41,267 nt of DNA from a virus: the IMG/VR virus record IMGVR_UViG_3300045988_070117, positions 1 to 41,267 of that record. One strand, given 5' to 3'. A program made the position numbers and the translations under genes. The notes under the pieces are model-generated. The model was not told where the DNA came from. It worked only from the letters and a program-made list of their open reading frames with translations, and made no database searches. How positions within the stretch are numbered: the first letter of the stretch is position 1; each line of letters opens with the position of its first letter. Shown here piece after piece: positions 3,695 to 31,516 of this stretch.

Positions 3695-4886
3695 ACGCTG
3701 GAATTTTAAGTCAGGTGCGGTCAGATCGGGCAAGTCCTATGTGGACGTCACGGCGGTCATCCCGATGCGGATACGCGAGCGGATAGGCAAAGACGGGCTG
3801 TGCTTTATCGTCGGCGTCAGTAAAGAGACCATCGAGCGAAACGTCCTACAGCCGATGCGCGAGCGGTACACCTCAAGCGTAGTCGGAACGATTAACTCAC
3901 GGAACATCGCCCGGGTGTGCGGCGAAGATGTCTACTGCCTCGGCGCCGAAAAAGTCTCGCAGGTGGCGAAGATTCAGGGTGCGTCCGCAAAATATATCTA
4001 CGGCGACGAGGTGGCGAAGTGGCACGAAGATGTGTTCAATATGCTGAAATCGCGTCTCGACAAGCCCTATTCATGTTTCGACGGCTCTCTCAACCCTGAG
4101 CACCCGACGCACTGGCTTAAAACATTTCTCGACAGTGACGCTGATATCTACTGTCAGCAGTACACGATTTTCGACAACACGTTCCTCTCGCCGGAGTTCG
4201 TCAAGAACCTCTGCAAGGAGTACGAGGGAACGATTTATTATGACCGCCTGATACTTGGCAAATGGGTGCGAGCTGAAGGCGCAATATACCGGCGTTTCGC
4301 GGACAACCCCGCGAAATTTCTTTTCACCGGCGAATTCAAGAAGCGCGAAATCACTGAAATCGTCATCGGCGTCGACTTCGGCGGCAACAAGTCCGGGCAC
4401 GCTTTCGTCGCGACCGCGAAAACAGGCGGCTATGACAAGCTCGTCGCGCTGGCGTCTGAACGCCACTTCGGCGACCTGGACCCGGGCGATATAAACGATC
4501 TCATTATTAAGTTCGCACAGCGCATCGCCGCGAAGTACGGCGAAATCGACTATATCTATTTCGACAACGCCGAAACCGTCCTCGGTCGGGGGCTTGCACG
4601 GGCTTTTGATAAAGCAATGCCCGCGACGATCGTACGACCGGCTATCAAAGCGTGCGTCAACGACCGTATAGCCGCCACACAGGCGCTTATGGGCGCGGGA
4701 AGGTTCTTATATACCCCCGACTGCGAAACGCTCAGGACGGCGCTCTCGGAGGCTGTGTGGGACGACAAGGCGCTTGACGACGTTCGTCTTGACGACGGCT
4801 CCACTGATATCGACTCACTTGACGCTTTTGAATACACCTTCGAGCGCGACATGAAGCGCTTCATAGATCACGAGGGACAAGTATGA
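3651..4886 (+). CDS. terL: Terminase large subunit (PBSX-type)
   Basis: Walker A SGAVRSGKS near the N-terminus. Size and position between terS and portal fit. Confidence 0.9.
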   Translation: MLTAKQKQYIAEANKRWNFKSGAVRSGKSYVDVTAVIPMRIRERIGKDGLCFIVGVSKETIERNVLQPMRERYTSSVVGTINSRNIARVCGEDVYCLGAEKVSQVAKIQGASAKYIYGDEVAKWHEDVFNMLKSRLDKPYSCFDGSLNPEHPTHWLKTFLDSDADIYCQQYTIFDNTFLSPEFVKNLCKEYEGTIYYDRLILGKWVRAEGAIYRRFADNPAKFLFTGEFKKREITEIVIGVDFGGNKSGHAFVATAKTGGYDKLVALASERHFGDLDPGDINDLIIKFAQRIAAKYGEIDYIYFDNAETVLGRGLARAFDKAMPATIVRPAIKACVNDRIAATQALMGAGRFLYTPDCETLRTALSEAVWDDKALDDVRLDDGSTDIDSLDAFEYTFERDMKRFIDHEGQV

Positions 4887-25134: not shown

Positions 25135-25181
25135 AATATAGGCAATAGCCTATAAATATTATGAAAGGTGGTATAACCACA

Positions 25182-25850
25182 ATGGATGGAACTCCCTCCC
25201 TCTCCGATATCGCGGCGGTAACCCGCGACAACGACGGCGCATTCGGCGGCTCCGGCGGCTGGATGTGGATAGTCGTGATCTTCCTCTTCGCCTTCATGGG
25301 CGGCGGCTTCGGCTGGGGAAATCGCGGCGCGGCGGCAGAACAGCCCGTGACCGAGGCCGGACTGTGTAACGCCATGAACTTTAACAACCTCGAGAACGCA
25401 GTCGGCAGACTGTCTGACCAGACCCAGAACCAGACTATGACGCTGGGCAACGGCATCTGCAACCTCGGCTACGAAATGCAGGGCAACATCGGACAGCTTG
25501 GCAAGGAAATCGCGCTCGGACAGGCTAACCTCGGCACTCAGATCGCGGGCAGCACGTCTGAGCTCTCCCGGCAGCTCGCCGAGTGCTGCTGCACCACACA
25601 GCGCGGCATAGATAGCGTTAATTACAATAACGCTATCAACACGGCGGCTATCAATGCCAACATTGACGCGAAATTTGCGGCAATGGAAAAGGCACAGCTG
25701 GAGCAGACGATTGCTGCACAGCAGAATCAGATCAATCAGCTGAACCTTCAGGCACAGCTCTGCGGCGTCGTAAGATACCCGATGTCGTACAGCTACACTG
25801 CCGGACAGTCGCCCTTCTGCGGCGGCTGCGGGTGCAACGGCAACGTATAA
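25182..25850 (+). CDS. Cys-rich membrane protein with a Gly-rich TM segment (alternative start 25161)
   Basis: AAAGGTGG lies before ATG 25182. Contains GGSGGWMWIVVIFLFAFMGGGFGWGN, then a Gln/Asn-rich helical region. Cys motifs are CCC and a C-terminal FCGGCGCNGNV. Confidence 0.65.
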   Translation: MDGTPSLSDIAAVTRDNDGAFGGSGGWMWIVVIFLFAFMGGGFGWGNRGAAAEQPVTEAGLCNAMNFNNLENAVGRLSDQTQNQTMTLGNGICNLGYEMQGNIGQLGKEIALGQANLGTQIAGSTSELSRQLAECCCTTQRGIDSVNYNNAINTAAINANIDAKFAAMEKAQLEQTIAAQQNQINQLNLQAQLCGVVRYPMSYSYTAGQSPFCGGCGCNGNV

Positions 25851-25881
25851 GGTATAAACGCCCTTTACGGCGAGGATTCAA

Positions 25882-25908
25882 GGGGCGGCAATAGCTGCCC
25901 CAATTTTA
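25882..25908 (+). terminator. Weak terminator-like hairpin
   Basis: GGGGCGGC AATA GCTGCCCC followed by AATTTTA (poor U-tract). Confidence 0.35.
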
Positions 25909-25929
25909 ATAAACGGAGGAAAGATTAAA

Positions 25930-26328
25930 ATGAAATCTGCTATATACACGGCGAATACCACTGCGGCTACACTTGCGGTCGGCGACATTATCCCACTCGG
26001 AACGACCATCCGGCGCTACGGGTGTAATCTCCGGCAGGATGGCAACGCCGTCACGACAACCGGTCGCGGGTATTACAAGATCACCGCCGCCGTCACAGCA
26101 GCACCCACAGCAGCCGGAGAGATCGGTGCGACACTGCTTAAGGATGGCATAGCAGTCACCGGTGCAAGCGCGTCAGCGACCGCCACGGGAGCCGGTGACG
26201 TTGTAATGCTGCCTATAACGGCAATCGTCCGTAACCTCACTGACTGTGATTCCTCGCTCCTCGCGCTGCGTCTTGACGACGGCGCCGGACAGGTTACCAA
26301 CGTCGCGGTAACTGTGGAGAAGCTGTGA
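25930..26328 (+). CDS. BclA C-terminal-domain-like (TNF/C1q-type jelly-roll) protein
   Basis: The pattern GYYKITAAVTA...LLKDGIAVTGASA...NVAVTVEKL parallels BclA-CTD (GFYKITVIANT...IQVNGVPVPGTGS...SIIIEKV). There is no collagen-like region. Confidence 0.6.
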   Translation: MKSAIYTANTTAATLAVGDIIPLGTTIRRYGCNLRQDGNAVTTTGRGYYKITAAVTAAPTAAGEIGATLLKDGIAVTGASASATATGAGDVVMLPITAIVRNLTDCDSSLLALRLDDGAGQVTNVAVTVEKL

Positions 26329-26822
26329 TGAAAGCCCACATACAGGACTATCGCGCCCGGCTCGAGAAGGAAATCGCCGAGTACCTCGCGCTTCCGGCAA
26401 GCGAGAAAAGCGCGAGGGCCGTCGACGGTATGCTCTCGTGCTGGGAACATATCCGGTCGGTCGAGCGGTGTCTGTACGGCGGCGAGGGGCATCAGAGCGC
26501 GGCTCTGAGCGCCGCCGATCTCACGGCATGGAATTCCCGTATGGACAACGCTGACGGCACCCGCGGTGGGCATTGGACGATCTCACAGACGTCCGGAGCC
26601 GCGCAGAGTGTGGGAGTGGCGTTTGAGCACATCACGCCCGAGGCGTGGAACGCCACAATGAATATGATGTACTCGGACTATTACCCCACAGCTGAGGCAT
26701 ACGGCACAGATCAGCCGGAGTTTTACGCACAGCTCGCGAAGGATTTTCTGTTCGATAAAGACGGCGGCGAACCGCTGAAAAAACTTGCAGAATATTACCG
26801 CGAAATTGTAAAAAACGCTTGA
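26328..26822 (+). CDS. Hypothetical protein (NADGTRGGHW motif)
   Basis: TGATG coupling and a GGAGAAG RBS. Last gene of the operon. Confidence 0.65.
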   Translation: MKAHIQDYRARLEKEIAEYLALPASEKSARAVDGMLSCWEHIRSVERCLYGGEGHQSAALSAADLTAWNSRMDNADGTRGGHWTISQTSGAAQSVGVAFEHITPEAWNATMNMMYSDYYPTAEAYGTDQPEFYAQLAKDFLFDKDGGEPLKKLAEYYREIVKNA

Positions 26823-26847
26823 CAAACGCGTTTGCTTGTGGTATAAT
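26819..26847 (+). promoter_or_regulatory. Consensus sigma-A promoter for a short non-coding unit
   Basis: TTGACA (26819-26824), a 17-nt spacer, then TGgTATAAT (26839-26847). Confidence 0.7.
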
Positions 26848-26852
26848 GAGAA

Positions 26853-26949
26853 TGCAGGGGCGGCGAACCCCGGCAGCCGCCTGCAAAGGCGCGGATTAAA
26901 AAGAACTCATATATCGAGGGAAAAGGGAGCGGAAACGCTCCTTTTTCTT
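26853..26949 (+). ncRNA. Candidate ~95-nt small RNA
   Basis: Own promoter and own terminator. A 5' GC-rich hairpin (26853-26885) is followed by an A/U-rich single-stranded stretch. There is no ORF with an RBS. Confidence 0.5.
26921..26949 (+). terminator. Intrinsic terminator of the sRNA unit
   Basis: AAAAG GGAGCG GAAA CGCTCC TTTTTCTT. Confidence 0.8.
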
Positions 26950-26998
26950 GTTCATATAACGTTTACAAATAAATACGGTACTTTTTCTCGTAAACCTA

Positions 26999-27027
26999 TT
27001 GACTTTTTGTACCGAATGTGATATAAT
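26999..27027 (+). promoter_or_regulatory. Near-consensus sigma-A promoter of the acidic-protein operon
   Basis: TTGACT (26999-27004), a 17-nt spacer, then TGaTATAAT (27019-27027). The GTTTAC/GTAAAC inverted repeat (26961-26966 / 26990-26995) lies just upstream. Confidence 0.7.
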
Positions 27028-27080
27028 AGATACATCAACAAGGGACGCGGATAACCCGGAAACCGCAGAAGGAGAACAAA

Positions 27081-27425
27081 ATGAAGCTTACGAATGAAAT
27101 GATTGAAAAGGTGAAGGCGGCAATCGAGGCTGACGAGAAGCACGAGATCTTCGCGATCCGCACTCAGGACGTTCCCTTCGAGGTGGGAAGAATCGATCAC
27201 AAGTCGCTCATCTGGATCGACGGCGAAATGACCGACGAAGAGCTCGACGGTATCAGCGCGACCGTCATCGATACAAATGATATCGAAAGGTCTCTGAACC
27301 GTCACAATCGCGAAGGCTACGACGGCGAGCACATCGCGATCCTCGCTGGTGGCTACTCAATGCCTGGCGAGGACGCCGGCGAAATCATCATGGAGACCCC
27401 CGACGTCATCGCGATCCTCGCGTAA
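27081..27425 (+). CDS. Acidic hypothetical protein (114 aa)
   Basis: AAGGAG RBS. By my count 26 D/E against 10 K/R. Confidence 0.7.
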   Translation: MKLTNEMIEKVKAAIEADEKHEIFAIRTQDVPFEVGRIDHKSLIWIDGEMTDEELDGISATVIDTNDIERSLNRHNREGYDGEHIAILAGGYSMPGEDAGEIIMETPDVIAILA

Positions 27426-27513
27426 ATCAACCGCTCCTGAGCCGTCGAGCGCATCGGCGGCATCCCAGAAATGAAGCTGTCCCATCGGCTTGACGGGGGA
27501 GAAGGAGAAAATC

Positions 27514-27870
27514 ATGGAGTACAAAGCAAGACTTAGCGCGGCAGAGTGGACTAACGGAAGCGGTTGGGACTGTGGAAACGGCTTCGACGTGATAGGCGAT
27601 GAAGTTGCAAGCTGGGACATCAGCGAGGGTGATCTTGACAGATGGAAACAGCTTTTCAAAGACCGTGACAGATCACTTTTCGATTACGTGATCGACGGTT
27701 TCGACGATCGCGACGATGACTACGACGAGGATCCGGACGACGAGGAAGGCGACACCAAGTGGACGATGAGGCTCATCGAGATCGATGACGAGGGCGATGA
27801 GAAGGTTCTCGCGTCGGTCTCCTACTGGGAATCGGAACTCATGGGCGACGATGAGGAAAGCGACGAATGA
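27514..27870 (+). CDS. Extremely acidic hypothetical protein (118 aa), DNA-mimic-like composition
   Basis: Trimmed to ATG 27514 (AAGGAG RBS). By my count 41 D/E against 11 K/R, with runs such as DDRDDDYDEDPDDEEGD. Confidence 0.7.
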   Translation: MEYKARLSAAEWTNGSGWDCGNGFDVIGDEVASWDISEGDLDRWKQLFKDRDRSLFDYVIDGFDDRDDDYDEDPDDEEGDTKWTMRLIEIDDEGDEKVLASVSYWESELMGDDEESDE

Positions 27871-28244
27871 AAAAAGTCATTAAAGGCGCCGTCTGCGACA
27901 CGGAGACAGCGGAGCAGATCGGCGAATCGCGGTACGACGGATATACCGAGTACCTTTACCGGACGAAATCCGGGAAGTACTTTATCCACACTGTACGGAG
28001 TAAAGGGCTCGTGCGAGAGGATATATACCTGATGACCAATACAGCCGCCGCTGATTGGATTATGGTCGCCTACGGACCCGTAGACGCCTACTACGACGCT
28101 AAGACCGGTGCGAAAAAAGAGTGGGCGAAGATCAGCGTGTCGTCGACGACCAAAGCGCTGATCGACGAGCTTCGCGGGGCATATGGGATGACTGCGAATG
28201 AGCTGATCTCAGACGCGCTTAAGACATATCGTAAAAACGCATGA
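27867..28244 (+). CDS. Hypothetical protein with a C-terminal ribbon-helix-helix-like segment
   Basis: ATGA-coupled. KISVSSTTKALIDELRGAYGMTANELISDALKTY fits a strand-helix-helix pattern. Confidence 0.65.
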   Translation: MKKVIKGAVCDTETAEQIGESRYDGYTEYLYRTKSGKYFIHTVRSKGLVREDIYLMTNTAAADWIMVAYGPVDAYYDAKTGAKKEWAKISVSSTTKALIDELRGAYGMTANELISDALKTYRKNA

Positions 28245-28247
28245 CGG

Positions 28248-28272
28248 AGCCGGGGAAGAATCCCCGGCTTTA
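28248..28272 (+). terminator. Terminator-like hairpin after the accessory operon
   Basis: AGCCGGGGA AGAA TCCCCGGCT followed by a short T run. Confidence 0.55.
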
Positions 28273-28291
28273 CACGTTTTATACACGTTTT
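28271..28291 (+). repeat. Two tandem TACACGTTTT repeats (11-bp period), candidate integrase arm-type sites
   Basis: Copies at 28271-28280 and 28282-28291. Confidence 0.5.
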
Positions 28292-28474: not shown

Positions 28475-28496
28475 TACACGTATTTTACACGATTTT
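28475..28496 (+). repeat. Two tandem TACACG(T/A)(A/T)TTT repeats (11-bp period), second pair of candidate arm-type sites
   Basis: TACACGTATTT at 28475-28485 and TACACGATTTT at 28486-28496. They overlap the int stop codon. Confidence 0.5.
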
Positions 28497-29615
28497 ATTC
28501 AGGATTTCGAGCGCGTGCTCCTCTTCACGCGGGTATAAGTGGGAGTATGTATTCCACGTGATCGTAACATTTTTGTGCCCGAGCCGTCGTGCGACTTCCT
28601 GAATATTGATACCGCTGTTGGCAAGCAGCGACGCGTGCGAGTGTCGGAACTCGTGTATTGTGCGGTGTGGAAGTCCTGCCGCCTCCGCGAAAGCCTGATT
28701 CCGTTTCTCGATTGTCGAATCTCTCAGACAGCCAACACCACGGCAGACGAGCCAATTGTCGTTAAAGCCTGTCATGACCTGTTGTCGCTTTCTGTGGTCC
28801 TCGAGAGCGGCGACAAGAGGCTGTGGCATTTGTATGTCACGGACAGACGATAGCGTCTTTACGAGCAGCTCTGTTTCCCTCTTGCCCTTGATCTTCTGGG
28901 ATATGCTTCGCCGGACCTTGATAACATTCCCGTCGATATCGGACCATTGCAGCGCGTGTATCTCACCTTTTCTCATCCCCGTGTAAAACGCGACCATGAA
29001 GAAGATATAATAGCCCCACTCGTCAAGATCACCGCTTGCCTCGGCTCGCTGTTTCGCGACAGCAATGTAGCGGAGAAATTCGTCCGAAGTATAGTAACGG
29101 ACTTTTTTCTCCGGTACGGCAAACTCCGGTGTTTTGTATCCACCGATCTGCCGTATGGGATTCTTCGGGACATATTCCATTCGTACAGCGTAGTTGATCA
29201 TCGTCGATAGCACCTTAAGATACGTGCTGGACGTTGCCGGGCTCAGACCGAGGGCAAGAATATCCGATTTGTATTTCTGCGCCGCTACAACATTAAATTT
29301 GTCGAGCTTTATGTCCCCGACGAGAGGGATGATAGTATGTTCAAAGGTACGTCGTTTCTTGTCCCACGTGGTCTCGCGAAGCTCGTGCTTGCAGACCTCG
29401 ATATACTCGTCATACAGATCTTTCAACGTCTTCCGCGCCGCGGGAGGCGTTTTTTTGATCTCTTCGGACAGCTTCCGCTCGAGATCCTTTGCTTCGGCCG
29501 AGCCGTAGGCTACCCGGTCGATCTGCCGGGGCTTGCCGAACTGATCGACGTAGTTGATACGTACACGGTACTGTTGTTTACCGTCTTTTTTGCCGTCCAT
29601 TTTGTAGATCGGCAT
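28485..29615 (-). CDS. int: Tyrosine integrase
   Basis: The C-terminus HEFRHSHASLLANSGINIQEVARRLGHKNVTITWNTYSHLY has the R..H-x-x-R..H..Y catalytic pattern. Start trimmed to the ATG (MPIYK) with an AAGGAG RBS. Confidence 0.92.
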   Translation of the reverse strand: MPIYKMDGKKDGKQQYRVRINYVDQFGKPRQIDRVAYGSAEAKDLERKLSEEIKKTPPAARKTLKDLYDEYIEVCKHELRETTWDKKRRTFEHTIIPLVGDIKLDKFNVVAAQKYKSDILALGLSPATSSTYLKVLSTMINYAVRMEYVPKNPIRQIGGYKTPEFAVPEKKVRYYTSDEFLRYIAVAKQRAEASGDLDEWGYYIFFMVAFYTGMRKGEIHALQWSDIDGNVIKVRRSISQKIKGKRETELLVKTLSSVRDIQMPQPLVAALEDHRKRQQVMTGFNDNWLVCRGVGCLRDSTIEKRNQAFAEAAGLPHRTIHEFRHSHASLLANSGINIQEVARRLGHKNVTITWNTYSHLYPREEEHALEILNKIV

Positions 29616-29636
29616 GATGTTCACGCTCCTTTTGCT

Positions 29637-29678
29637 AAAAAGTGGTTATTTCCGGAATGGAAACAACCACTTATTTTT
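29637..29678. terminator. Bidirectional intrinsic terminator between the Zn-ribbon membrane gene and int
   Basis: 14-bp stem AAGTGGTTATTTCC/GGAAACAACCACTT (1 mismatch) flanked by A5 and T-rich runs. Confidence 0.7.
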
Positions 29679-30243
29679 ATTCCACGATTACACAACGGTC
29701 TATGGTAAGGGTTAAATTAAAATTACCCACCTTGCCATAAAGCGTGATGGTATCTCCAACTGCGAGATTCGCGACCTTATCAACCTCACTCTGGTCGCTG
29801 AAATAACATTGTGCATATTCCCACGTTAAGTCTGTGCCGTCGTTGACGCAGACATATATATTGTTAAGCACATCTTTCCCAATGTCCTTAACTTTGCCGG
29901 TGATCTTCACGAACTTGTCTTTGTACTTCTGATCAGCGGCGACTTCGTTTGTCTGGTATTCGTCGAGCATGGTCATAACATCGGCAAATTCATATTCGAT
30001 AGTAGGGGAATCTTTCCCGACAACTACCGTTCCATTCTGGTTGGTATCTATAGAACCTCCCGTAGGCTGATCGGAGTTATTTTTGCCGCTGTTGCCGCCG
30101 ATAACGGCGATCGCAATAACGGCTACAACAATAACCGGAATCAACCATTTCGGCATTTTCTTCTTCCTGCTGACATTACCTCCACAGTATGGGCAGGTGT
30201 TCGCGTCGTCCGGAATGTCGCGGTTGCATTTCTTACACTGCAT
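29677..30243 (-). CDS. Zn-ribbon / single-TM / extracellular OB-fold-like (tRNA_anti-like) membrane protein
   Basis: MQCKKCNRDIPDDANTCPYCG, then TM WLIPVIVVAVIAIAVIG. The C-terminus reads ...VAADQKYKDKFVKITGKVKDI...GDTITLYGKV. Confidence 0.7.
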   Translation of the reverse strand: MQCKKCNRDIPDDANTCPYCGGNVSRKKKMPKWLIPVIVVAVIAIAVIGGNSGKNNSDQPTGGSIDTNQNGTVVVGKDSPTIEYEFADVMTMLDEYQTNEVAADQKYKDKFVKITGKVKDIGKDVLNNIYVCVNDGTDLTWEYAQCYFSDQSEVDKVANLAVGDTITLYGKVGNFNLTLTIDRCVIVE

Positions 30244-30259: not shown

Positions 30260-30697
30260 TCAATATCTCAGCCACCCCGCGCCGGGGTTCAGGATATCGA
30301 TCATAAATATTAAACATATAAACGTCATCAAAGCAATAGCCAGGATGAACACCGCTCGGAACTGTTTCCGCTGATATTCGAACTGCCTCTCAAAAAGCAG
30401 CCTCATTTCCGTAATGGCAGAATTTTCCATTTTTGAATCTTCGCTCCCATTCTCGGGAATAGTCTCATTTTCTGCGTCAATCGTCTCATTCTGCGTCCCG
30501 TCTTCGGCTATCAGCCACTCGACTGAAACATCCAAAGACTGTGCGATAAGTTCGACCGTGGAATACTTAACCGATATCGTGCCGTCGTAAATGCGATACA
30601 GCGTGGTCTTCGAAACGCCCGACTGATCGGCAAATTGCTGTACTGTCATTCCCTTTTCCGCAAGCTTGCCTTTCAACCGTGGGATATTTACCTTCAT
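30260..30697 (-). CDS. XRE-family HTH regulator with a C-terminal TM anchor
   Basis: The HTH is MTVQQFADQSGVSKTTLYRIYDG. The C-terminal hydrophobic helix is AVFILAIALMTFICLIFMIDIL. Confidence 0.8.
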   Translation of the reverse strand: MKVNIPRLKGKLAEKGMTVQQFADQSGVSKTTLYRIYDGTISVKYSTVELIAQSLDVSVEWLIAEDGTQNETIDAENETIPENGSEDSKMENSAITEMRLLFERQFEYQRKQFRAVFILAIALMTFICLIFMIDILNPGAGWLRY

Positions 30698-30792: not shown

Positions 30793-30821
30793 ATTATATC
30801 ACCTTTTGAACGAAATGTCAA
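30793..30821 (-). promoter_or_regulatory. Leftward consensus promoter of switch A, face-to-face with the rightward one
   Basis: On the minus strand: TTGACA (30821-30816), a 17-nt spacer, then TGaTATAAT (30801-30793). Confidence 0.65.
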
Positions 30822-31413: not shown

Positions 31414-31442
31414 ATTATAACACATAATCGTGCATTTGTCAA
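31414..31442 (-). promoter_or_regulatory. Consensus promoter of the CI-like repressor gene
   Basis: On the minus strand: TTGACA (31442-31437), a 17-nt spacer, then TGtTATAAT (31422-31414). Confidence 0.7.
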
Positions 31443-31487: not shown

Positions 31488-31516
31488 TTGACAACCAGTC
31501 AAAAGTGTGGTATAAT
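31488..31516 (+). promoter_or_regulatory. Consensus early rightward promoter
   Basis: TTGACA (31488-31493), a 17-nt spacer, then TGgTATAAT (31508-31516). The palindrome TTGAC-N5-GTCAA (31488-31502) overlaps the -35. Confidence 0.75.

What the first reader, a model, noticed from the sequence alone, without database searches (positions are those of the whole stretch)
26999..28272. acr-aca-like operon: strong promoter, two very acidic small proteins, then an RHH-type protein
Seen: a near-consensus promoter (TTGACT-17-TGaTATAAT) has an inverted repeat GTTTAC/GTAAAC just upstream. It drives a 114-aa acidic protein (26 D/E vs 10 K/R by my count) and a 118-aa protein that is 35 percent D/E (41 D/E vs 11 K/R, with runs like DDRDDDYDEDPDDEEGD). 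The third gene is a 125-aa protein whose C-terminus fits a ribbon-helix-helix pattern. A hairpin terminator follows. Established: DNA-mimic anti-restriction and anti-CRISPR proteins (the Ocr/ArdA type and several Acrs) are small and strongly acidic. Anti-defence operons commonly combine a very strong promoter with a downstream autorepressor (Aca) gene. Inference: this is a candidate immediate-early anti-defence operon.
Basis: partly seen in the sequence, partly recalled or inferred. Interest (0 to 1): 0.65.

Follow-up and report, generated by a model that had tools for sequence, protein, structure and literature searches.

The report
Candidate phage anti-CRISPR cassette with regulator
This is a self-contained three-gene cassette at the end of a gut prophage whose last gene marks a large, unnamed family of probable repressors; in related phages the same cassette carries known anti-CRISPR parts, so its two acidic proteins are good but untested candidates for new immune inhibitors.

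Summary
A near-consensus promoter (26999-27027) leads two acidic proteins and a protein with a C-terminal ribbon-helix-helix (RHH), followed by a strong hairpin. I call these P1 (114 aa), P2 (118 aa) and P3 (125 aa).

P3 is the conserved anchor. Its unnamed family has about 4,100 clusters at 50% identity. In 26 related loci it is always the last gene of a promoter-led unit. The other genes of the unit (the cargo) are shuffled among 26 mostly acidic, unannotated families.

Relatives link this cassette type to anti-CRISPR function:
- Five cassettes carry AcrIC5-family proteins; one scores above Pfam's cut-off.
- Seven carry AP2-domain proteins.
- One near-identical cassette pair has either P1 or the AcrIC5-like gene in first position.
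- Eleven loci carry a promoter-driven solitary type I-C CRISPR repeat just upstream, an RNA anti-CRISPR (Racr) candidate.

P1, P2 and P3 match no known anti-defence family or solved fold. The window's own small RNA unit does not match the I-C repeat model. A different repeat that brackets the -35 box is the better operator candidate.

Verdict: an acr-aca-like cassette with a new RHH-type regulator family. The support is guilt by association, with no functional test.

The parts
26819..26847 (+). Perfect consensus promoter (TTGACA-17-TGgTATAAT) of a small upstream transcription unit
   Evidence: 12/12 with the TG extension. It starts just after the stop codon of the last late gene.
26848..26951 (+). 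Small non-coding unit of about 100 nt: a GC hairpin (26853-26885), a GCGCGGATTAAAAAG motif (26886-26902), then the terminator hairpin 26920-26947 with a T-run. It occupies the position of the type I-C solitary CRISPR repeat (Racr candidate) seen in relatives.
   Evidence: The unit is an optional insertion, present in some relatives and absent in others. The terminator has dG -21 and z -5.2. The window copy scores only 8.5 bits against the I-C repeat model, whereas relatives score 30.7-33.6 bits.
26961..26995 (.).
   Evidence: Present, but at chance level and not conserved in close relatives.
26973..27017 (.). Better operator candidate: ATACGGTAC (26973-81) / GTACCGAAT (27009-17), bracketing the -35 box
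   Evidence: The CGGTAC/GTACCG core is invariant in all ten clade-1 promoters. CGGTAC-N27-GTACCG occurs only once in the window. It shares its symmetry centre with the 12-bp perfect repeat of clade 3. On its own it is weak: 56 of 1000 shuffles reach it.
26999..27027 (+). Operon promoter: TTGACT, 17-nt spacer, TGaTATAAT
   Evidence: 11/12 with TG. The promoter plus 5'UTR is about 90% identical in MT840043, where it leads a different first gene.
27034..27080 (+). Conserved purine-rich 5'UTR with a possible GCGG...CCGC stem and an AGGAG ribosome-binding site (27070-27074)
   Evidence: Conserved across regulator clades. There is no folding or covariation support: z +0.21, and only 4 predicted pairs of which just one shows a compensatory change, in a single sequence.
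27081..27425 (+). P1: 114-aa acidic globular protein (cargo)
   Evidence: PHROG 18666, function unknown. It has 29 close homologues. AlphaFold2 gives pLDDT 88.8 and pTM 0.81. It has no PDB neighbour and only uncharacterised phage proteins in BFVD. It takes the place of an AcrIC5-like gene when L041 is compared with L040.
27514..27870 (+). P2: 118-aa very acidic protein (cargo) with conserved aromatic residues and an acidic loop of variable length
   Evidence: It is fused to a second cargo domain in the 207-aa proteins of L027, L028, L031 and L032.
27867..28244 (+). P3: the conserved anchor. It has an N-terminal beta-rich domain (MKKVIKG..CDTETA..LYRTKSGKYF) and a C-terminal RHH, and is the probable autorepressor.
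28247..28285 (+). Terminator-like GC hairpin (28247-28270) with an imperfect U-tract
   Evidence: dG about -20 kcal/mol, z -5.35.

Best explanation
The region 26999-28285 is a self-contained accessory cassette of a temperate Bacillota gut phage. It lies between the late/lysis genes and attP/integrase, and it works like an acr-aca operon.

Proposed mechanism:
1. A host-type consensus promoter transcribes the interchangeable cargo genes, here P1 and P2.
2. The same transcript ends with P3, the fixed last gene.
3. P3 dimerises through its C-terminal RHH domain.
4. P3 binds half-sites that bracket the -35 box (ATACGGTAC / GTACCGAAT) and shuts down its own operon once enough protein has accumulated.
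5. The cargo proteins are inhibitors of host immunity. In this phage lineage the most likely target is type I-C CRISPR-Cas.

Shown by computation: the anatomy; P3 as the conserved anchor; shuffling of the cargo; perfect pairing of promoter type with P3 type; and AcrIC5-family genes, AP2 genes and type I-C solitary repeats in sibling cassettes.

Inferred only: that P3 binds this promoter, and that P1 and P2 inhibit any defence system.
For: 1. Anchor and variable cargo.
- In 26 loci the P3 homologue is the last gene behind a TTGAC-N17-TAnAAT promoter. The genes between fall into 26 clusters, mostly acidic and without any Pfam or PHROG match.
- P1, P2 and clusters C4 and C5 each occur with several P3 clades.
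- The same layout (lysin, hypothetical genes, P3 homologue, integrase on the opposite strand) occurs in the cultured Lactobacillus phages LFP01 and JNU_P7.

2. Known anti-CRISPR content in sibling cassettes.
- The cargo protein at about L047:4725-4955 hits Pfam AcrIC5 (PF22147) at 35.2 bits, E 1.3e-8, above the cut-off of 27.
- The L040 and L042 proteins score 25.1 and 23.3 bits, just below the cut-off.
- The L047 protein matches PDB 7YHR (AcrIC5) at E 0.014.
- Five cassettes carry this family.
- L040 and L041 are 93-97% identical in DNA except for the first gene, which is AcrIC5-like in L040 and P1 in L041.
- Zn-ribbon plus AP2 proteins lie directly upstream of P3 in seven cassettes. AP2 genes are reported as frequent in acr loci and next to an AcrIC5 homologue (PMC10732046).

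3. RNA anti-CRISPR candidates.
- I built a covariance model from 11 published type I-C repeats (PMC4521832, PMC4645204).
- It matches, full length, the promoter-driven unit just upstream of the cassette in 11 relatives: 30.7-33.6 bits, E 2.7e-5 to 1.5e-4.
- Weaker units sit next to distant P3 genes in L059 and L023.
- A validated I-C Racr lies beside an AcrIC5 homologue (PMC10651486).

4. Regulator.
- Four promoter spacer types pair one-to-one with four P3 clades in 22 loci, despite the cargo exchange.
- Clade 3 has a 12-bp perfect inverted repeat around the -35 box (0 of 1000 shuffles). Its symmetry centre is the same as that of the window's ATACGGTAC/GTACCGAAT.
- Precedents for RHH regulators of acr or establishment operons are Aca14 (bioRxiv 10.64898/2026.07.27.740549), AcrIE10 (PMC13530269) and Reg of p576 (PMC8708921).

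5. P1 with other regulators.
- In a Mannheimia Mu-like phage, P1 has its own promoter and is followed by a small XRE-type helix-turn-helix gene.
- P1-like genes precede distant P3 homologues in L077 and L084.
Against: - P1, P2 and P3 have no hit in Pfam, NCBIfam, PADLOC or PDB sequences.
- The confident models of P1 and P3 match no solved anti-defence protein.
- The window carries no AcrIC5 or AP2 gene.
- The window's small RNA unit fails the I-C repeat model (8.5 bits, E 7.4). No CRISPR array with its sequence was found.
- The window's own inverted repeat is not significant alone (56 of 1000 shuffles).
- The promoter-P3 pairing could simply reflect both lying outside the segment that gets exchanged.
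- Some cargo proteins are large or basic (250-300 aa), which is unlike typical anti-CRISPR proteins.
- The region between the lysis genes and attR in Gram-positive prophages also holds lysogenic-conversion genes (my own knowledge).
- One P3 homologue is paired with a MazF toxin.
Confidence: 0.6

Rival explanations
1. It is a generic lysogenic-conversion (moron) cassette. The genes are expressed from the prophage for the host's or the prophage's benefit, for example superinfection exclusion or host physiology. P3 is an ordinary operon repressor, and the anti-CRISPR genes in siblings are just some of many possible cargo types.
For: - The position is directly after the late genes and before attP/integrase, with its own promoter and terminator.
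- A Sie-like gene lies nearby at 29677-30243.
- The cargo is very heterogeneous and includes 250-300 aa proteins.
- acrIB2 of phiCD38-2, at the same position, is highly transcribed in lysogens (PMC10732046).
Against: - The only cargo with recognisable function is anti-CRISPR-related: AcrIC5 and AP2 proteins, plus the solitary I-C repeats just upstream of the cassettes.
- No membrane, toxin, enzyme or defence-system domain was found.
- In L004 the cassette lies between the small terminase and SSB genes, not at an att site.
Confidence: 0.2
2. P3 is an antitoxin-like protein: the RHH domain provides autoregulation and the N-terminal domain neutralises a partner. The cassette is then an addiction or abortive-infection type module.
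For: - A full-length P3 homologue on a Methylobacterium plasmid (hhalign probability 98.7%, E 3e-16) is annotated as a HicB-family antitoxin.
- That gene sits directly upstream of a PemK/MazF toxin gene.
- The domain layout (partner-binding domain plus RHH) is typical of antitoxins.
Against: - In the window and in the 26 phage cassettes no gene follows P3 within the unit. The upstream partners vary, are acidic, and carry no toxin domain.
- The Pfam HicB match of the plasmid protein covers only its RHH end.
- The P3 model does not resemble solved HicB structures.
Confidence: 0.07
3. P3 is a recombination directionality factor (excisionase) that happens to lie next to the integrase, and the acidic genes are unrelated passengers.
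For: P3 homologues usually lie within a few hundred bases of an integrase gene. P3 is small, basic and DNA-binding.
Against: - Homologues occur next to both tyrosine and serine integrases, and in L004 with no integrase at all.
- attP separates the two genes, so in the prophage they lie at opposite ends.
- The repeats that covary with the P3 clade are in the cassette promoter, not at att.
Confidence: 0.04

Closest known systems
acr-aca operons (Aca1/Aca2-type autorepressed anti-CRISPR operons)
   Same: - A strong promoter drives variable small acidic genes.
- A conserved small DNA-binding gene closes the operon.
- Inverted repeats lie in the promoter.
- The conserved gene can serve as an anchor for guilt-by-association searches.
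- Sibling cassettes contain a recognised anti-CRISPR family, AcrIC5.
   Different: - The regulator has an RHH domain plus an extra N-terminal domain of about 85-100 aa, rather than a helix-turn-helix.
- The candidate half-sites bracket the -35 box, about 36 bp apart centre to centre.
- No anti-CRISPR activity has been shown for any gene in the window.
Aca14, the RHH-type Aca (Feussner et al., bioRxiv 10.64898/2026.07.27.740549)
   Same: An RHH protein in the aca position that represses its own and neighbouring anti-defence operons through promoter inverted repeats.
   Different: - Aca14 comes from Pasteurellaceae and other Proteobacteria.
- Its repeat overlaps the -10 box, and a helical extension is described.
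- P3 has a beta-rich N-terminal domain and repeats around the -35 box.
- Sequence relatedness could not be tested because the Aca14 sequence was not at hand.
Bifunctional Acr-Aca proteins (AcrIIA1 of Listeria prophages; AcrIE10, PMC13530269)
   Same: - A two-domain protein: a DNA-binding autorepressor domain plus a second conserved domain.
- It is the conserved marker of acr loci.
- The Listeria loci also lie between the lysin gene and the att site (my own knowledge).
   Different: - The domain order is reversed relative to AcrIE10 and AcrIIA1.
- The P3 N-terminal domain has no structural match to either protein.
- No inhibitor activity is known for it.
acrIC5-racrIC1 locus of a Bifidobacterium prophage (Camara-Wilpert et al. 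2023, PMC10651486) and AcrIC5-AP2 loci (PMC10732046)
   Same: Sibling cassettes combine an AcrIC5-family gene, an AP2-domain gene and a promoter-driven solitary type I-C repeat.
   Different: - In the relatives the repeat unit is a separate transcription unit upstream, not bicistronic with the acr gene.
- The window has none of the three recognisable parts. It has only a diverged small RNA unit at the same position.
Reg(p576)-controlled establishment genes of pLS20-family plasmids (PMC8708921)
   Same: An RHH repressor acts through operators that flank strong promoters of genes needed just after entry into a new cell.
   Different: That system is a conjugative plasmid, not a phage. No sequence relationship was tested.

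Membership tests
acr-aca operon | At least one gene encodes an inhibitor of CRISPR-Cas (activity, or homology to a validated Acr) | tested here: not met
   P1 and P2 have no Pfam, NCBIfam, PADLOC or PDB hit. The P1 fold matches no solved Acr. The feature is met only in sibling cassettes, which carry AcrIC5-family genes. Activity cannot be tested with these tools.
acr-aca operon | A conserved small DNA-binding regulator gene in the same operon, downstream of the variable genes | tested here: met
   P3 is the last gene in 26 of 26 cassettes. P2 and P3 overlap by ATGA.
acr-aca operon | Inverted-repeat operator in the operon promoter, specific to the regulator | tested here: inconclusive
   Repeats bracket the -35 box and covary with the P3 clade. 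The repeat is significant in clade 3 (0 of 1000 shuffles) and clade 4 (24 of 1000), but not in the window's clade on its own (56 of 1000). Binding was not tested.
Aca14 (RHH Aca) | Sequence homology to Aca14 (WP_005725436.1) | not tested
Only the paper's description was read.
Aca14 (RHH Aca) | Inverted repeat overlapping the -10 element | tested here: not met
   The window's candidate arms are at 26973-81 and 27009-17. They flank the -35 box and end before the -10 box at 27022-27.
Ribbon-helix-helix (CopG/RHH_1, PF01402) | Score at or above Pfam's gathering threshold | tested here: inconclusive
   The window P3 scores 13.2 bits against a cut-off of 20.5. Nine of 22 homologues match, best E 1.2e-4. 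The family profile aligns with full-length CopG at E 0.47. The predicted secondary structure fits an RHH.
DNA-mimic anti-restriction proteins (Ocr, ArdA) | Sequence or fold similarity to Ocr or ArdA, or an elongated surface imitating B-DNA | tested here: not met
   P1 has no Pfam hit and no PDB neighbour at E <= 0.001. It is a compact alpha/beta fold with conserved H, S, W and GED motifs. P2 has no sequence hit.
AcrIC5 family (PF22147) | Pfam match above the gathering score | tested here: not met
   P1 and P2 give no match. The L047 cargo protein reaches 35.2 bits, above the cut-off of 27. The L040, L042 and L043 cargo proteins score 17-25 bits.
Racr / solitary CRISPR repeat unit (for the unit at 26819-26951) | Sequence and structure similarity to a CRISPR repeat, with a promoter upstream | tested here: not met
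   A promoter is present. The window unit scores 8.5 bits (E 7.4) against the type I-C repeat model and 14.3 bits against Rfam CRISPR-DR9. No array was found by an exact-pattern scan. The homologous unit in 11 relatives does meet the feature, at 30.7-33.6 bits.
Type II toxin-antitoxin (HicB-like antitoxin) | An adjacent cognate toxin gene | tested here: not met
   A hairpin and attP/integrase follow P3, and no toxin domain is found in P1 or P2. Only the Methylobacterium plasmid homologue has a MazF neighbour.

The most novel reading that the evidence does not exclude
P3 may be more than a repressor. Its strongly conserved N-terminal beta-domain, which has no Pfam family and no PDB neighbour, could itself be an effector or sensor. 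It would bind a host immune component or a cargo protein and so couple de-repression of the cassette to engagement of the target, as in AcrIIA1 and AcrIE10. If so, this unnamed family of about 4,100 clusters would be a general two-domain marker of anti-defence islands in Bacillota phages and plasmids. It would also give direct access to dozens of new inhibitor families, P1 and P2 among them.
Probability: 0.2. Interest if true: 0.8.

Novelty: new variant of a known kind. Interest (0 to 1): 0.62.

Why it matters
Anti-CRISPR discovery in gut Bacillota is limited by the lack of anchor genes. Most known Aca families are helix-turn-helix proteins from Proteobacteria.

If the P3 family really is the regulator of these cassettes, it offers a new anchor of a different type. 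It has about 4,100 clusters at 50% identity and no Pfam model. It already points to more than 20 uncharacterised cargo families in human-gut phages, including P1 and P2.

It would also extend the recent finding that RHH proteins can take the Aca role.

The co-occurrence of AcrIC5-like proteins, AP2 proteins and solitary type I-C repeats in one exchangeable locus makes testable predictions about which immune system these phages face.

Tried and rejected
- Direct annotation of P1, P2 and P3 gave nothing useful. Pfam, PHROGs, PADLOC, NCBIfam and PDB sequences returned nothing apart from PHROG 18666, whose function is unknown.
- Fold searches of confident P1 and P3 models against the PDB found no neighbour at E <= 0.001. 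BFVD returned only uncharacterised phage proteins.
- A structured RNA in the 5'UTR was rejected. It folds no better than shuffles (z +0.21) and has only 4 predicted pairs, of which just one shows a compensatory change, in a single sequence.
- AcrIB2 of phiCD38-2 was tested as a relative of P1, P2 or P3, with no similarity. Only gp25 of that operon shares a short 'GSEKQIxWAxDIR' motif with cargo of other P3 cassettes.
- The excisionase idea was rejected on context.
- The toxin-antitoxin reading was kept only as a minor rival.
- The window's small RNA as a type I-C repeat mimic is not supported.
- Domain fusions in long P3 homologues were uninformative.
- P1 was not found in plasmids.
- An exact search for the operon promoter in viral contigs found nothing.
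Full report
**Context**

The window is a complete temperate siphovirus-like genome in permuted form.
- Structural and late genes run on the + strand to 26822.
- The finding follows, then a tyrosine integrase (28485-29624, - strand).
- Next come a Zn-ribbon/OB 'Sie-like' gene and an XRE-type repressor, both on the - strand.
- Early and replication genes on the + strand complete the genome.

There is no close cultured relative. The structural proteins resemble those of Ruminococcus, Acutalibacter and C. difficile phages at about 40% identity. The host is therefore probably a gut member of the Bacillota.

**Check of the observation**

- The promoter at 26999-27027 scores 11/12 with a TG extension.
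- I call the three proteins P1, P2 and P3. P1 is 114 aa with 26 D/E and 10 K/R. P2 is 118 aa with 41 D/E and 11 K/R. P3 is 125 aa with pI 8.85.
- P2 and P3 overlap by ATGA.
- A hairpin of about -20 kcal/mol (z -5.35) follows, but its U-tract is imperfect.
- The RHH reading of the P3 C-terminus is reasonable though below Pfam's cut-off for this protein (13.2 bits against 20.5). Nine of 22 homologues hit RHH_1, best E 1.2e-4. The family profile aligns in register with full-length CopG. AlphaFold2 (pLDDT 90) predicts an extended segment followed by two helices.
- The inverted repeat GTTTAC/GTAAAC exists. It is at chance level and is lost in relatives whose P3 is 94-96% identical.

**What the three proteins are**

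None has a named family.

P1:
- It belongs to a phage family of unknown function, PHROG 18666.
- It has conserved H, S, W, TDEELDG and GED motifs.
- Its model is a confident compact alpha/beta fold (pLDDT 88.8, pTM 0.81).
- The model has no PDB neighbour and only uncharacterised viral neighbours.

P2:
- It belongs to a narrow family with conserved aromatic residues and an acidic loop of variable length.

P3:
- It has a beta-rich N-terminal domain carrying the motif MKKVIxGxxxDTxTA...LYRTKSGKYF.
- An exhaustive profile search finds 4,132 representatives at 50% identity with E <= 1e-3, and 1,932 with E <= 1e-10.
- No Pfam model covers it, and no source gives it a name.

**The key structural finding: a fixed anchor with exchangeable cargo**

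I collected loci encoding P3 homologues.
- In 26 of them a consensus promoter is followed by one to five genes, and then always by the P3 homologue as the last gene.
- The intervening genes fall into 26 sequence clusters. Most are acidic, and nearly all lack any Pfam or PHROG match.
- P1, P2 and other cargo families occur in combination with different P3 clades.
- A human-faecal phage contig (MT840043) has the window's promoter and 5'UTR at about 90% identity but a different first gene.
- The unit usually lies after the lysis genes and before an integrase on the opposite strand. This includes the cultured Lactobacillus phages LFP01 and JNU_P7.
- In one phage type (L004) it lies between the small terminase and SSB genes.

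**Evidence that this cassette type is an anti-CRISPR locus**

Three independent kinds of recognisable content appear in sibling cassettes.

1. AcrIC5-family proteins.
   - A 68-77 aa acidic cargo family matches Pfam AcrIC5.
   - The L047 member reaches 35.2 bits (E 1.3e-8), above the cut-off of 27. The L040 and L042 members score 25.1 and 23.3 bits.
   - The L047 member matches the solved AcrIC5 chain 7YHR at E 0.014.
   - Five cassettes carry this family.
   - L040 and L041 are 93-97% identical in DNA except for the first gene, which is AcrIC5-like in L040 and P1 in L041.
   - AcrIC5 orthologues are known to be spread across Firmicutes and Actinobacteria (PMC7913775).

2. AP2-domain proteins.
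   - Seven cassettes have a Zn-ribbon plus AP2-domain protein directly upstream of P3.
   - AP2 genes are reported as frequent in acr loci and as neighbours of an AcrIC5 homologue. They were the bait that led to AcrIB2, which sits right after the lysis genes of phiCD38-2 (PMC10732046).

3. Solitary type I-C repeats.
   - The small promoter-driven unit just upstream of the cassette matches, full length, a covariance model I built from 11 published type I-C repeats.
   - Eleven relatives score 30.7-33.6 bits, E 2.7e-5 to 1.5e-4.
   - The unit shares its 13-nt tail TGCGGATTGAAAT and its length of 33 nt with the B. saguini repeat (PMC4521832).
   - Weaker repeat-like units lie beside distant P3 homologues in L059, which has two units with their own promoter and terminator, and in L023.
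   - Such solitary repeats are validated RNA anti-CRISPRs, including an I-C one next to an AcrIC5 homologue (PMC10651486).

**Regulation**

- Four promoter spacer types pair one-to-one with four P3 clades in 22 loci, despite the cargo exchange.
- The residues of the predicted RHH beta-strand differ between clades.
- In clade 3 a 12-bp perfect inverted repeat (ATTTGATGTTTT / AAAACATCAAAT) brackets the -35 box. No shuffle out of 1000 reached it.
- In clade 4, TTTCTCGA / TCGAGAAA does so (24 of 1000).
- In the window's clade, ATACGGTAC / GTACCGAAT has the same symmetry centre as the clade 3 repeat. Its CGGTAC/GTACCG core is invariant, and the pair occurs only once in the window. On its own it is not significant (56 of 1000).
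- This fits an autorepressor with clade-specific operators. A caveat is that the promoter and P3 both lie outside the exchanged segment, so simple linkage could also explain the pairing.
- RHH regulators of acr or establishment operons have recent experimental precedents: Aca14 (bioRxiv 10.64898/2026.07.27.740549), AcrIE10 (PMC13530269) and Reg of p576 (PMC8708921).

**What remains unsupported for the window itself**

- The window's cassette contains no AcrIC5 gene and no AP2 gene.
- Its small RNA unit (26819-26951) lies at the homologous position and shares the promoter, the terminator and a GCGyGGATT motif.
- That unit scores only 8.5 bits against the I-C repeat model and 14.3 bits against Rfam CRISPR-DR9.
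- An exact-pattern scan of metagenomes found four single copies and no arrays.
- The DNA-mimic idea has no support for P1 and is untested for P2.
- Expression timing cannot be inferred from sequence.

**Rivals**

- A generic lysogenic-conversion cassette remains possible (0.2).
- A toxin-antitoxin reading is prompted by a full-length P3 homologue directly upstream of a MazF gene on a Methylobacterium plasmid. No toxin is present here (0.07).
- An excisionase role is unlikely on context (0.04).

**Verdict**

This is an acr-aca-like cassette whose conserved last gene defines a large, unnamed, two-domain RHH family. That makes it a new variant of a known kind.

The strongest evidence is guilt by association and guilt by position. 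No function has been shown for P1, P2 or P3.

Noticed in passing
window 26819-26951: A perfect consensus promoter drives a unit of about 100 nt that ends in a strong terminator. The unit is inserted between the stop codon of the last late gene and the shared terminator, and it is present in some relatives and absent in others. In relatives it contains a full-length type I-C CRISPR repeat mimic (a Racr candidate). The window's version is diverged (GCGCGGATTAAAAAG) and fails the repeat model.
   Followed up: yes
L059 2048-2122 (- strand); L023 5479-5505 (- strand): Distant P3 homologues also have type I-C repeat-like units next to them. In L059, two units 17 nt apart have their own TTGACA promoter and terminator and are divergent from the P3 gene.
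   Followed up: partly
L092 2501-3363 (Methylobacterium fujisawaense plasmid NZ_CP155001): A full-length P3-family protein, annotated as a HicB-family antitoxin, lies directly upstream of a PemK/MazF toxin gene. The family may therefore serve as an antitoxin in some settings.
   Followed up: partly
L027 4333-4956 (also L028, L031, L032): A P2-like domain is fused to the 103-aa cargo domain that is a separate gene in L008 and L037. This recalls the split and fused forms described for AcrIB2.
   Followed up: partly
L003 3962-4588 (Mannheimia phage vB_MhM_3927AP2): In a Mu-like phage a P1 homologue has its own annotated promoter and is followed by a 71-aa XRE helix-turn-helix gene. The same cargo is thus paired with a different kind of small regulator.
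   Followed up: partly
window 27034-27080 and the homologous 5'UTRs: The 5'UTR (GGGA..GCGGATAACCC..CCGC..AGGAG) is conserved across regulator clades. A similar GCGGAT(T/A)A motif occurs in the upstream small RNA. No structure or covariation support was found.
   Followed up: partly
window 29677-30243 (- strand): A Zn-ribbon plus OB-fold membrane protein matches PHROG 8545 ('superinfection exclusion Sie-like'). It lies between the integrase and the XRE repressor (30260-30697).
   Followed up: no
window 30793-30821 (-), 31414-31442 (-), 31488-31516 (+): Three further 12/12 consensus promoters with TG extensions lie around the repressor and early-gene junction. They probably form the lysis-lysogeny switch.
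   Followed up: no
window 25930-26822: The last late genes are a BclA_C-like protein (25930-26328) and a DUF7841 protein (26325-26822). No holin or endolysin was identified in the stretch I scanned (25161-26822), unlike in the related phages.
   Followed up: no
L093 4247-5077 (phiCD38-2 gp25); L022 about 4021-4596; L075 333-704: The first gene of the acrIB2 operon of phiCD38-2 shares a 'GSEKQIxWAxDIR' motif with cargo proteins of two P3-anchored cassettes.
   Followed up: partly
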